Assembly (NCBI RefSeq): GCF_045037415.1 | Contig: NZ_CP173438.1 | Length of the DNA stretch: 64,000 bases | Origin: Escherichia coli | GTDB lineage: Bacteria > Pseudomonadota > Gammaproteobacteria > Enterobacterales > Enterobacteriaceae | Reading direction: 5' to 3' (one strand) | Shown: one piece after another, positions 9,001 to 12,000 of the stretch | How positions within the stretch are numbered: the stretch's first letter is position 1 | Layout: every line of letters begins with the position of its first letter | Program-made: the position numbers

Positions 9001-12000
9001 CGCGCCGTTTGGCGATATGACGGTGAAATGCCATCAGCATTATTACATCACCACATTACCGGGCAGGCAGTGGCCAAAAATTGAGGCATTTATTACCTGG
9101 CTAAGAGAGCAGGTATGTCAGTCTTGTCAGTATCAGTGATACCGGGGATACCGGGGATACCGACAATATGGAAGGGCTCATTGCCCTGAAAACAACATTG
9201 GTGTCGGATGTACCGGGCCGCAGACATTGCGCTCCGTCATTTGTGCGGCACAGCCCATCACAGTGATAAAGTTTCTCAGTATGTATCAGGGATCTACACG
9301 CAGCAGCTTAAGGAGGCCGGATTGCAAGCATCAACAGGGCGTACAGGCGACTCGTATGGCAGCGCGATGGCGGAGAGCATCAATGATCTTTACAAAGCGG
9401 AATACACCATAAGAGCTGGAAAAATCGTGCAGAAGTGGAACTGGCCACACTTACGTGGATGGACTGGTATAACAATCGACGTTTACTGGAAAGGCTGTGG
9501 CACATCCCTCCGGCTGAAGCAGAAAAAGCGTATTATGCTTCTATCGGAAATGATGAGCTGGCAGCCTGAGTTCACAGATAAAACACTCTCCAGGAAACAC
9601 GGGGCGGTTCAACTGACAGACATCACAAATCCCCGGGTGGGGATTTGTGTATAAGAGACAGAGCCTAGCTGGGGGCTGTGCACAAGAAAACGGCTCCCTG
9701 TTGTGGAAGCCGCTATAGTGCCGCAGTTTAAGGACCGGTCAACTGCTCCTTAACTGATCCGCATTGTGCGTGAAAGCAGACTTTTGGGGTCATTACATGT
9801 TTGAAAATACATTCATAATAATGCCGCCACTAATAATCAGCAACATGGAGAATATGGCAGGTAAATCGGGCTTTTGTTTATAAAGAATCATCGAGAAAAT
9901 TGTCACGCCAACAATCCCAAAGCCGCACCAGAGTGAATAGGCAACACCAACCGGAATAGTACTCATTGCTCTGGTCAGAGCGAAATAACACGTTGAATAA
10001 GCACATACCACCAGAACAGAAGGCCACAGTCGCCTAAAACCATTGGTTTTTTTGATCATTGACGTACCGGTTATTTCAGAACCGATGGAAAGTGCCAGCC
10101 ATAAAAATCCAATATTAAACATGAGCAATTCCTTTTGTCAGTTAGCGATTTTTTTATCGAGGTTGGTAACTGGAGTTTCTTCCGCCTCTTCACTGCCCAT
10201 TTTTGAGAACAGATTCATAATGATAATACCGCTGGCTATGATGACCATACCAATAATGGCGGCGGTATCCGGGTGTTGACCGTAAAATAAAATCCCAAGG
10301 GTTGAAACCATCAAAATGCCAGTACCGGACCATGTGGCGTAAGCCAGACCAACGGGGATATCTTTTACTGCCCGTGAAAGCGAGTAGTAACAAATGCAAT
10401 ACAGTACGACGATTAGGGCCAGCAGCAGCGTTTTTGTCATCCCCTCACTGTTATCGAACATTTTAAGTGTGGATGTTGCAGAGGTTTCAGAAAGGATGAC
10501 CAGTAACATCCATAGCCAGCATTTTGTTTTCGAAGACATATCTAAACTCCAGGTTTGTTATCGAGGTAAGGTTATTTTTTCTGTGCTTTCAAAAAATCGA
10601 CCGCAGCATCGGTCAGTACGGCGTCGGGTGATTTTGCCAGTGCCGGATTATTGACGATATCGGTGACAGTCAGATAACGCCGATGATGACTTACAGGCGA
10701 TTGACTGCTGACGTCTGTTGCCAGTTTTTCCAGCATTTCATTCATGGAACATAACGTAATGCCACACTCGCTAAGGCCGGTAAGCGTGGCGGAAAGATGC
10801 GCCGCGTAGTCGCTGTGAACAGTACCGCGAAGCGCGTTTAATTCGCTGTGCGGATCGCAGTAATAACGCAGTGCCAGTACCGGAATACCCGCCAGTAGCG
10901 CATCGTGAACCCTTTGCGCTACCGGGCTTTGCAGCGTACCGTTGACAATATCTACAGCCAGCGGGTAACTCAAAAACGGCAGCAATAACGCTTTATAGGG
11001 CGTTGAAGGCAATTTGTGTTGCCATGTTTTAGCGGGTATCACGTCACCAATTTGCTGCCACCGTTCGCTATCACTGATTGTTTCATCCAGCGCCAGATGC
11101 AACCGTTCGCCACAACGAGCCAACCGCTGATGAATCAGATCCCGATAGCCATCCGCAGATGTCACCATGACCAGTACCGCAGGTTGCAGCCGCTGGAGGA
11201 TCAGGTTGACGATGGTGTCGATCTGTTGTTCGGTCATGATGGCCTCCCTTAGCGAATCAGTGTTACCTGCGCCCCGTTTTTCAGTCCGGCAGCATTGGCT
11301 TCTTCCGTATCGATATGCAGTTCAAGGGCAAAATCATTGCGCACCCGTACCACCACTTCATCGAACGTTAACTGGCGTTCACCATGACTGCGAACACTCA
11401 CCTTCTGCCCATTGCTGACATTCAACAGACGAGCATCCTGGGGAGACATATGAATATGCCGCCAGGCGCAAATGACTTGTGAATGCAACTCAACATGACC
11501 TTTCGGCCCCACCAACAGTGCGTCACCGGCATTTTCCAGTTGCCCGGATTCACGCACTGGCGCTTTAATGCCGAGAGTAAAACAATCGGCACGTGAGATT
11601 TCCAGCTGGCTTGTCGGGCGAACCGGTCCAAGTACGCGGACGTGAGTCAGAGAACCTTTCGGGCCGACAACCGTTACACACTCTTCAGCGGCGAATTGCC
11701 CAGGCTGGCGCAACGGCTTAAAGGGCGTAAGTTGGTAGCCAACACCAAAAAGTGCTTCAACATCCTGTTGCGACAGATGCACATGACGATTAGAAACACC
11801 GACCGGAATAGTGGGAGCAGTATCGATCAGTCGCGTGGTGATTTTTTCCTGTAGCAGTGCGTCAATCATGCTTTCTTCCCTTTCTTATGCCCGTGGCTTT
11901 TCACTTCCACGATGGGGGCTTGCACTTCTTTCTCAGGTACAGGCATTGCAGTTTCAGTATCTGTAGAAACTTCAGCGGTTTCCTCGCAGACAGCCATTTC

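What the first reader, a model, noticed from the sequence alone, without database searches (positions are those of the whole stretch)
9793..10539. Paired SMR-family transporters at the distal end of the cut operon: candidate choline or TMA transporter
Two adjacent co-oriented SMR genes (111 and 133 aa) resemble heterodimeric SMR pumps. SMR proteins characteristically transport quaternary ammonium cations, and choline is one. Their placement in the cut operon suggests substrate import or TMA export rather than drug efflux.
Basis: inference. Interest (0 to 1): 0.45.

Follow-up and report, generated by a model that had tools for sequence, protein, structure and literature searches.

The report
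CutU/CutV: choline-cluster SMR transporter pair
The two small membrane-protein genes are real and are the already named cutU and cutV genes at the end of the E. coli choline-to-trimethylamine gene cluster, most likely a two-subunit choline uptake carrier, although nobody has yet measured what they transport or in which direction.

Summary
They are the last two genes of a type II (GRM2) cut cluster in E. coli.

Their products are identical to the last two proteins of the published 16-gene E. coli 536 cut locus, named cutU and cutV. Axen et al. proposed them as substrate transporters in 2014. They are choline-induced in Proteus. A 2026 paper reports them as important for TMA formation in E. coli 536.

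New here:
- In 42 species-level genomes, every CutU relative of at least 74% identity has CutV next to it and cut genes upstream (cutC/cutD in 41; one contig is truncated). This includes two clusters with no microcompartment genes.
- The clade is discrete; the nearest genuine relatives are at most 50% identical, singleton where examined.
- The subunits have opposite Lys/Arg bias (+5/-4), and both keep the EmrE catalytic residues.
- The pair is as conserved as CutC itself.

Best reading: an antiparallel heterodimer that imports choline, possibly in exchange for protonated TMA. Direction and substrate remain untested. Already known; modest interest.

The parts
10138..10539 (-). cutU: 133-aa SMR subunit (RefSeq WP_000095890.1). 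Predicted N-in/C-in topology (Lys/Arg bias +5), TM1 Glu18, and a ~25-aa acidic C-terminal tail.
9793..10122 (-). cutV: 109-aa SMR subunit (RefSeq WP_000481835.1), ATG start at 10122. Predicted N-out/C-out topology (Lys/Arg bias -5), TM1 Glu16.
10547..10550 (-). GGAG ribosome-binding site, 7 nt before the cutU ATG
   Evidence: read from the sequence
10130..10133 (-). AGGA ribosome-binding site, 7 nt before the cutV ATG at 10122
   Evidence: read from the sequence
9689..9714 (-). Terminator-like hairpin (10 pairs, 6 G-C) followed by TTTTCTT, about 80 nt after the cutV stop; the likely end of the operon
   Evidence: This is a consensus match only; the number of such sites in the region is no higher than in shuffles.
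10572..11237 (-). 221-aa ORF of unknown function between cutH and cutU (WP_000139438.1); part of the same gene string
11249..11869 (-). cutH, phosphotransacylase (PTAC)
   Evidence: (NF011652, 278 bits)
11866..12330 (-). cmcE, BMC-H shell protein
12342..13289 (-). cutD, choline TMA-lyase activating enzyme
   Evidence: TIGR04395, 414.9 bits, above its cut-off of 360
13341..16727 (-). cutC, choline trimethylamine-lyase, the long type II form (RefSeq start used)
16754..20721 (-). Upstream part of the main operon: cutO, cmcD, cutF, cmcC, cmcB, cmcA
   Evidence: Coordinates were transferred from the NU14 annotation using an offset of 6401.
21241..23178 (-). Regulatory genes cutY (FidL-like), cutX (winged helix) and cutW (TetR)
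9235..9569 (+). IS3-family transposase remnant flanking the cluster on the dsdC side

Best explanation
cutU and cutV encode the two halves of one inner-membrane carrier: an antiparallel SMR heterodimer dedicated to the choline-to-TMA pathway. Its main job is to bring the choline cation into the cell for CutC.

Shown here:
- The genes are SMR-family and paired.
- The subunits have opposite charge bias.
- They are the terminal genes of the cut operon.
- They co-occur strictly with cut genes and are as conserved as CutC.

From the literature:
- They are induced by choline in Proteus.
- They are reported as important for TMA generation in E. coli 536.

Inferred:
- The two TM1 glutamates and the Tyr40/Tyr44/Tyr60/Trp63 residues (EmrE numbering) of both subunits form one central site that binds the trimethylammonium head group.
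- Alternating access carries choline inward. [quoted passage not shown]
For: 1. Identity. The window matches E. coli NU14 and MS 200-1 at 100%. The two RefSeq proteins are the last two accessions of the published 16-gene EC536 cut locus. The published gene list ends ...cutH, cutU, cutV.

2. Operon. Gaps are 32 and 15 bp with good RBSs. A hairpin follows cutV. The P. mirabilis orthologues PMI2710/PMI2711 are listed among the cut-cluster genes strongly up-regulated by choline.

3. Genetics. [quoted passage not shown] From my memory of the Herring 2018 abstract, which is not held here, cutU and cutV deletions abolish choline degradation.

4. Co-occurrence. All 42 species-level loci with CutU at 74% identity or more have CutV immediately downstream, at a gap of 11-144 bp, and cut genes upstream (cutC/cutD in 41; L003 is cut off by its contig end). 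None of the 17 loci at 50% identity or less has cut genes. An exhaustive search of 1.84 billion representatives found no genuine intermediates.

5. Link to the enzyme rather than the shell. Two clusters without any microcompartment genes keep cutC-cutD-cutU-cutV in a row.

6. Constraint. In distant genera CutV is 83% and CutU 81% identical, compared with CutC 79% and CutD 76%.

7. Heterodimer. Lys/Arg bias is +5 (median) for CutU and -4 for CutV. This matches the paired-SMR rule.

8. Site. E14, Y40, Y60, W63, G65 and G67 are invariant in both subunits, and both share F44Y and S43C. LicB binds choline in an aromatic box.

9. Import rather than export.
- E. coli carrying only cutCD released TMA but was grown in 400 mM NaCl, which the authors used to raise choline uptake through BetT.
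- Transporters found in sampled type I cut clusters are of uptake type: a LicB-like DMT protein and a binding-protein ABC system.
Against: - No transport assay exists in the literature I could search.
- All characterised small-cation SMRs are proton-coupled exporters. Overexpressed EmrE makes cells lose choline and betaine.
- Both subunits keep the glutamates of the proton-antiport mechanism. That mechanism would push a cation out under a normal proton-motive force.
- At least one cut-positive E. coli, MS 200-1, also has betT (probe list), so another choline importer is available.
- The deletion phenotype comes from a secondary citation and my memory, not from the primary paper.
- Only 2 of 6 sampled type I clusters had any transporter, so the analogy rests on few cases.
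Confidence: 0.6

Rival explanations
1. CutU/CutV export the product only. Protonated TMA made in the cytoplasm is expelled in exchange for protons, as Gdx expels guanidinium. Choline enters through other carriers such as BetT.
For: - Characterised small-cation SMRs are proton-coupled exporters.
- Both catalytic glutamates are kept.
- The fate of TMA in E. coli 536 is stated to be undetermined.
- MS 200-1 has betT.
- From established chemistry, TMA has a pKa near 9.8, so it is almost fully protonated at cytoplasmic pH.
Against: - E. coli expressing only cutCD, and lacking cutUV, released TMA, so no dedicated exporter is strictly needed.
- From established knowledge, neutral TMA crosses membranes.
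- Proton-driven export would cost energy in a fermentation that yields little ATP (inference).
- Transporters seen in type I clusters are uptake types.
- A loss of TMA generation in the mutants is more easily explained by loss of substrate entry.
Confidence: 0.2
2. They are an ordinary quaternary-ammonium or drug efflux pump of the EmrE/Qac kind that happens to lie next to the cut genes.
For: - The best matches in NCBIfam and in the PDB are EmrE and Qac proteins.
- Several databases name relatives 'multidrug efflux SMR transporter' or 'methyl viologen resistance protein'.
Against: - Scores of 70-93 bits are far below the curated cut-offs of 160-226 bits.
- The clade occurs only inside cut clusters.
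- It is induced by choline.
- Only 5 of 72,556 plasmid records carry it, and three of those five are 4-5 Mb in size, i.e. chromosome-sized.
- It is retained next to cutD even when the microcompartment genes are lost.
Confidence: 0.04
3. The pair acts mainly in signalling. It supplies or senses choline for the CutX/CutY activators, so its loss prevents induction rather than bulk catabolism.
For: - Loss of the transporters and loss of the regulators are both reported as affecting TMA generation.
Against: - cutU and cutV lie inside the induced operon, not with the regulator genes. They would therefore be scarce before induction.
- Their very high conservation and retained transport residues fit a working carrier.
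- This reading still requires choline transport.
Confidence: 0.08

Closest known systems
EmrE and the Qac subtype of SMR transporters
   Same: - Closest sequence relatives with solved structures.
- About 110-aa core with four helices.
- The central Glu, Tyr40, Tyr60, Trp63 and the GxG motif are all kept.
- Substrates are quaternary ammonium cations, and EmrE handles choline and betaine.
   Different: - Only 37-38% identical and below all curated cut-offs.
- An obligate-looking gene pair with fixed opposite topology, rather than a dual-topology homodimer.
- Chromosomal and confined to cut clusters, not integron- or plasmid-borne.
- Choline-induced.
- The probable direction is inward.
Paired (heterodimeric) SMRs such as EbrAB and MdtIJ
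   Same: Two adjacent SMR genes in one operon with opposite Lys/Arg bias. Weak matches to the EbrA/EbrB and MdtI/MdtJ models.
   Different: - Scores to those models are 44-72 bits against cut-offs of 103-160, so they are not orthologues.
- Those pairs export drugs or spermidine.
- CutU and CutV are closer to each other (43%) than to EmrE, which suggests a duplication of their own.
LicB, the DMT-superfamily choline importer of Streptococcus pneumoniae
   Same: - Same superfamily; the LicB paper describes DMT proteins as derived from 4-helix EmrE-like proteins.
- Choline is bound in an aromatic box.
- Uptake feeds a cytoplasmic choline-consuming pathway.
- A LicB-like gene sits inside one type I cut cluster.
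   Different: LicB is a single 10-helix chain and a proton symporter. It shows no direct sequence match to CutU or CutV in the searches run here.
CaiT, the carnitine/gamma-butyrobetaine antiporter of the E. coli cai operon (from established knowledge)
   Same: A transporter encoded in an anaerobic quaternary-amine catabolic operon. It is a model for exchanging a trimethylammonium substrate for its product.
   Different: CaiT belongs to the BCCT family with 12 helices and is unrelated in sequence. Exchange by CutU/CutV is only a hypothesis.

Membership tests
SMR family (Pfam PF00893) | Significant match to SMR family profiles | tested here: met
   E 1e-11 to 1e-26 against many SMR models. PF00893 is precomputed for relatives of the 133-aa protein.
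SMR family (Pfam PF00893) | About 100-140 residues with four transmembrane helices | tested here: met
   109 and 133 aa. Each has four hydrophobic segments in register with EmrE.
SMR family (Pfam PF00893) | Conserved membrane-embedded Glu in helix 1, plus the Tyr switch, binding-site Trp and the TM3 GxG motif | tested here: met
   E14, Y40, Y60, W63, G65 and G67 (EmrE numbering) are invariant in 43 CutU and 42 CutV sequences.
Paired (heterodimeric) SMR | Adjacent co-expressed genes whose products have opposite Lys/Arg bias | tested here: met
   The gap is 15 bp here and 11-144 bp in 42 species. Bias is +5 (median) for CutU and -4 for CutV. The rule is described.
Paired (heterodimeric) SMR | Physical antiparallel heterodimer; neither subunit active alone | not testable with these tools
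   This needs co-purification, cross-linking, or single-gene versus double-gene complementation.
Qac/EmrE drug-efflux subtype | Score above the curated NCBIfam cut-off for an EmrE or Qac model | tested here: not met
   The best scores are 91 and 92.6 bits, against cut-offs of 162-226.
Qac/EmrE drug-efflux subtype | Confers resistance to quaternary ammonium antiseptics or dyes | not testable with these tools
The clade is nearly absent from plasmids.
Gdx (guanidinium exporter) subtype | Closest to the SugE/Gdx models and structures | tested here: not met
   SugE model: 58 and 34 bits against a cut-off of 126. Gdx-Clo structures score 41-51 bits, against 69-79 for EmrE.
MdtIJ polyamine subtype | Score above the MdtI/MdtJ cut-offs | tested here: not met
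   44-57 bits against cut-offs of 103 and 122.
Type II cut cluster / GRM2 locus, genes cutU and cutV | Same proteins and same position as the last two genes of the published E. coli 536 cut locus | tested here: met
   WP_000095890.1 and WP_000481835.1 appear in the NU14 annotation and as the last two accessions in the EC536 Fig. 1 legend. The window is 100% identical to NU14 and MS 200-1.
Type II cut cluster / GRM2 locus, genes cutU and cutV | Conserved linkage to cutC and cutD across species | tested here: met
   41 of 42 loci have cutC and cutD within 10 kb. The remaining locus is truncated by its contig end but still has cutH and the 221-aa ORF.
Type II cut cluster / GRM2 locus, genes cutU and cutV | Required for choline degradation | not testable with these tools
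   The evidence is a secondary citation and my memory of the Herring 2018 abstract. The primary paper is not held.

The most novel reading that the evidence does not exclude
CutU/CutV is a precursor/product exchanger. One binding site takes the choline cation in and sends protonated TMA out, one for one, with no net charge or proton movement.

This would be a fifth functional SMR subtype and the first SMR whose physiological role is nutrient uptake. It would also explain why a low-yield fermentation (about 0.5 ATP per choline) keeps its own carrier. Potential-driven uniport followed by loss of neutral TMA would cost about one proton per choline. Exchange would cost none.
Probability: 0.3. Interest if true: 0.65.

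Novelty: already known. Interest (0 to 1): 0.3.

Why it matters
Gut Enterobacteria that turn choline into TMA feed the host TMAO pool, which is linked to cardiovascular disease.

If CutU/CutV is the entry gate for choline, it is a membrane-exposed target specific to TMA producers. Such a target differs from CutC itself and from host choline carriers.

For transporter biology, a proven SMR importer or choline/TMA exchanger would extend a family known for export. The pair is small, tightly conserved and easy to reconstitute, so the question is directly testable.

As a genome-scan finding it adds little. The genes are named, a deletion phenotype has been published, and the same hypothesis dates from 2014.

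Tried and rejected
- **Primary paper.** I tried three identifiers for Herring et al. 2018. It is not held, so the deletion phenotype rests on a secondary citation and memory. Zarzycki et al. 2015 was also not held.
- **Supplements of the 2026 mBio paper.** They contain no cutU or cutV expression data.
- **Apparent intermediate relatives.** Three CutU relatives of 59-68% identity in the exhaustive search looked like a bridge to other SMRs. P0125 and P0128 come from frameshift-ridden contigs of ordinary type II clusters. P0126 is a YijD-CutU chimera on a short assembly. I rejected them as artefacts.
- **The TTG start at 10128.** Rejected in favour of the ATG at 10122.
- **A wasted search.** The first attempt to obtain a type I CutC sequence from PDB alignments returned only Klebsiella chains. 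A shorter query worked.
- **Internal promoter or terminator before cutU.** Consensus matches exist at 10141-10112 and 10615-10598, but their number is no greater than in shuffled sequence. I give them no weight.
- **Modelling a fused CutU-CutV dimer.** I decided against it. The tool returns no coordinates, so the dimer geometry could not be checked.
- **Whether cut-positive B2 strains lack betT.** MS 200-1 evidently has betT.
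Full report
**What is in the sequence.** The stated span holds two ORFs on the minus strand: 10138-10539 (133 aa, ATG) and 9793-10128 (111 aa if read from a TTG).
- Both match many SMR-family models (EmrE, Qac, EbrA/B, MdtI/J, SugE) at E 1e-11 to 1e-26. Every score (at most 93 bits) lies far below the curated cut-off of the model concerned (103-226 bits).
- The nearest solved structures are EmrE (69-79 bits), and then Gdx-Clo (41-51 bits).
- Each protein has four hydrophobic segments in register with EmrE.
- The distal gene almost certainly starts at the ATG at 10122, giving 109 aa. An AGGA lies 7 nt upstream of that ATG but only 1 nt from the TTG. RefSeq annotates 109 aa. 41 of 42 orthologues begin at the equivalent ATG with MF(N/T)...GFLWLAL; the exception is frameshifted.

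**Context.** The window is E. coli. The stretch 9600-11300 is 100% identical to strains NU14, O25b:H4 and others. The SMR pair itself is present at 99% identity or more in 322 of 5,426 complete E. coli genomes, including strain MS 200-1.
- Upstream on the same strand, with gaps of 11-51 bp or 4-bp overlaps, lie a 221-aa ORF, cutH, cmcE, cutD (TIGR04395, 415 bits), cutC, cutO, cmcD, cutF and cmcC/B/A. The regulators cutY, cutX and cutW follow.
- The cutU and cutV starts have GGAG and AGGA sites at 7 nt. The intergenic gaps are 32 and 15 bp.
- A 10-pair hairpin with a T-run lies about 80 nt after the cutV stop.
- Beyond it are an IS3 transposase remnant and dsdC/dsdX/dsdA.

**It is already known.** The NU14 proteins under the match are WP_000095890.1 and WP_000481835.1. 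These are the last two accessions of the 16-gene cut locus of E. coli 536 printed in a 2023 paper (PMC10710832).
[quoted passage not shown] - The primary paper (Herring et al. 2018) is not held. From my memory of its abstract, cutU and cutV were among the genes required for choline degradation.
- Axen et al. 2014 noted 'two multi-drug resistance proteins' conserved in GRM2 loci, 'perhaps as transporters for substrate' (PMC4207490).
- Kalnins et al. 2020 call them transporter genes.
- In Proteus mirabilis the 'emrE homologues' PMI2710 and PMI2711 belong to the cluster PMI2710-22, which the authors report as strongly up-regulated by choline (PMC5026066).
- The 2022 SMR review recognises four functional subtypes (guanidinium, drug/antiseptic, polyamine, lipid) and does not mention this pair.
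- I found no transport assay in the held literature.

A scan of one genome per species with CutU returned 59 loci. I checked them with tblastn for nine cut proteins.
- The 42 loci with CutU at 74-97% identity come from Kluyvera, Klebsiella, Raoultella, Enterobacter, Cedecea, Pantoea, Erwinia, Providencia, Proteus, Moellerella, Pragia, Photobacterium and Aeromonas.
- All 42 carry CutV immediately downstream, at a gap of 11-144 bp.
- 41 carry cutC and cutD upstream. The remaining locus is cut off by its contig end but still has cutH and the 221-aa ORF.
- The 17 loci at 35-50% identity are single SMR genes with no cut genes.
- An exhaustive search of 1.84 billion representatives found one full-length cluster for the clade. 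It also found three apparent intermediates at 59-68% identity. Two come from frameshift-ridden contigs of ordinary type II clusters, and one is a chimera. Beyond these, that search found nothing above 46% identity.
- The clade is therefore discrete and, as far as sampled, confined to cut clusters.
- It is almost absent from plasmids: 5 of 72,556 records, three of which are chromosome-sized (4-5 Mb).

**Link to the enzyme rather than the shell.** In Pantoea coffeiphila (L024) and Erwinia sp. JUb26 (L027) the cluster has no shell genes, no cutO, no cutH and no 221-aa ORF.
- CutC lacks its roughly 320-residue N-terminal extension.
- The order is cutX, cutY, aldehyde dehydrogenase, cutC, cutD, cutU, cutV.
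- The SMR pair therefore travels with CutC/CutD even when the microcompartment is lost.

**Strength of constraint.** Across the 42 species the median identity to the E. coli proteins is as follows:

| Protein | All 42 species | Distant subset* |
|---|---|---|
| CutV | 87% | 83% |
| CutU | 84% | 81% |
| CutC | 90% | 79% |
| CutD | 89% | 76% |
| CutF | 86% | 75% |
| CutH | 84% | 68% |
| CutO | 84% | 69% |
| CmcE | 60% | 53% |
| 221-aa ORF | 58% | 30% |

*Providencia, Proteus, Moellerella, Photobacterium and Pragia.

In the distant subset the pair is the most conserved part of the cluster.

**Anatomy of the pair.**
- Using the review's formula, Lys/Arg bias is +5 in E. coli CutU (median +5, range 2 to 6, n=43). 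It is -5 in E. coli CutV (median -4, range -5 to -4, n=42).
- The review gives about +4 and -4 as the signature of fixed-topology subunits that assemble as antiparallel heterodimers.
- By that rule CutU has both termini in the cytoplasm, including its roughly 25-residue acidic tail (SKMGSEEAEE...). CutV has the opposite orientation.
- In EmrE numbering, E14, Y40, Y60, W63, G65, G67, G97 and N102 are invariant in both subunits. Both also carry S43C and F44Y in every sequence.
- CutU and CutV are 43% identical to each other and 37-38% identical to EmrE. This fits a duplication within this lineage.
- I infer that two glutamates and up to eight aromatic side chains line one central site suited to a trimethylammonium head group. 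This is comparable to the aromatic box that holds choline in LicB.

**Direction of transport.** This is inference, not shown.

For import:
- E. coli carrying only cutCD released TMA. The authors grew it in 400 mM NaCl to raise choline uptake through BetT. TMA therefore leaves cells without CutU/CutV, and the authors saw uptake as worth boosting.
- Loss of the cluster's transporters is reported to impair TMA generation.
- Among six sampled type I cut clusters, four had no transporter within 10 kb. One (L067) had a 327-aa EamA/DMT gene among the shell genes, whose only solved relative is the choline importer LicB (E 2.4e-22). One (L071) had a binding-protein ABC system directly after cutD.

Against import:
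- Characterised small-cation SMRs are proton-coupled exporters.
- Overexpressed EmrE makes cells lose choline and betaine.
- Both glutamates of the antiport mechanism are retained.
- MS 200-1 also has betT.

**A reconciling idea.** Exchange of external choline for internal protonated TMA uses the ordinary SMR antiport cycle with two cations and needs no net proton or charge movement.
- From established pathway stoichiometry, choline fermentation yields about 0.5 ATP per choline.
- Potential-driven uniport followed by escape of neutral TMA leaves one proton inside per choline. That would consume a large part of the yield.
- Exchange would avoid this cost, as CaiT does for carnitine. This is my inference and is untested.

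**Verdict.**
- The genes are cutU and cutV, so the novelty class is 'already known'.
- What this analysis adds is the strict and discrete co-occurrence, the charge-bias and residue evidence for an antiparallel heterodimer, conservation equal to that of CutC, retention in shell-less clusters, and the LicB-like counterpart in a type I cluster.
- The open and testable question is whether an SMR works here as an importer or as a choline/TMA exchanger.

Noticed in passing
window 10572-11237 (-): The 221-aa ORF between cutH and cutU has no Pfam or NCBIfam match. It is present in all shell-containing type II clusters but evolves fast (28-65% identity). It is absent from the two shell-less clusters, which hints at a microcompartment-related role.
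   Followed up: partly
L024:3119-10755 and L027 (about 4900-10760): Pantoea coffeiphila and Erwinia sp. JUb26 carry a compact cut cluster with no shell genes, cutO, cutH or the 221-aa ORF. CutC is short (about 820 aa, no N-terminal extension), and the aldehyde dehydrogenase in L024 is shortened (457 aa). This is an apparently de-compartmentalised derivative of the type II cluster.
   Followed up: partly
L067:4775-5758 (+): A type I cut cluster has a 327-aa EamA/DMT transporter gene among its shell genes. Its only solved relative is the choline importer LicB (E 2.4e-22). It may be the 'MDR efflux transporter' that Axen et al. listed for GRM1 loci.
   Followed up: partly
L071:13286-15651 (+): Another cutC/cutD locus with few shell genes is followed by an ABC transporter with a substrate-binding lipoprotein (Lipoprotein_9, with a faint OpuAC hit). 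This is a possible choline uptake system.
   Followed up: no
window 9646-9661 (+), with a palindrome around 9632-9657: An exact 16-mer, TGTGTATAAGAGACAG, lies at the outer edge of the IS3 remnant, next to the palindrome CACAAATCCCCACCCGGGGATTTGTG. The 16-mer is identical to the core of the Tn5 mosaic end (Nextera adapter). It is unique in the window and not expected by chance. It lies within the stretch that is 100% identical in many complete genomes, so it is probably a genuine IS end rather than adapter contamination.
   Followed up: partly
window 9235-9569 (+) and 23469-24682 (-): The whole cut cluster is bracketed by IS3-family elements: a remnant on the dsdC side and a full copy beyond cutW. 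It is present in only 5.9% of complete E. coli genomes at 99% identity or more, consistent with a recently acquired island. Kluyvera has the closest orthologues.
   Followed up: partly
window 10598-10615 (-): A terminator-like hairpin followed by ATTTTTT lies inside the 3' end of the 221-aa ORF, just before cutU. The number of such sites in the region is no higher than in shuffles, so it may be chance.
   Followed up: no
L008:10428-10757: In the Kluyvera ascorbata ATCC 33433 draft the cutV reading frame is broken near the 5' end. This is either a sequencing error or a pseudogene.
   Followed up: no
P0125, P0126, P0128 (L061-L063): Representatives in the 50%-identity protein library that looked like divergent CutU relatives are artefacts. 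Two are frameshifted gene calls on noisy contigs, and one is a YijD-CutU chimera. This is a caution for reading identity gaps in that library.
   Followed up: yes
L066:1-20780: This metagenomic contig appears to carry two tandem copies of a type I microcompartment gene set (Aldedh, BMC, PTAC, EutJ-like, EutN, and more) on either side of cutC/cutD.
   Followed up: no
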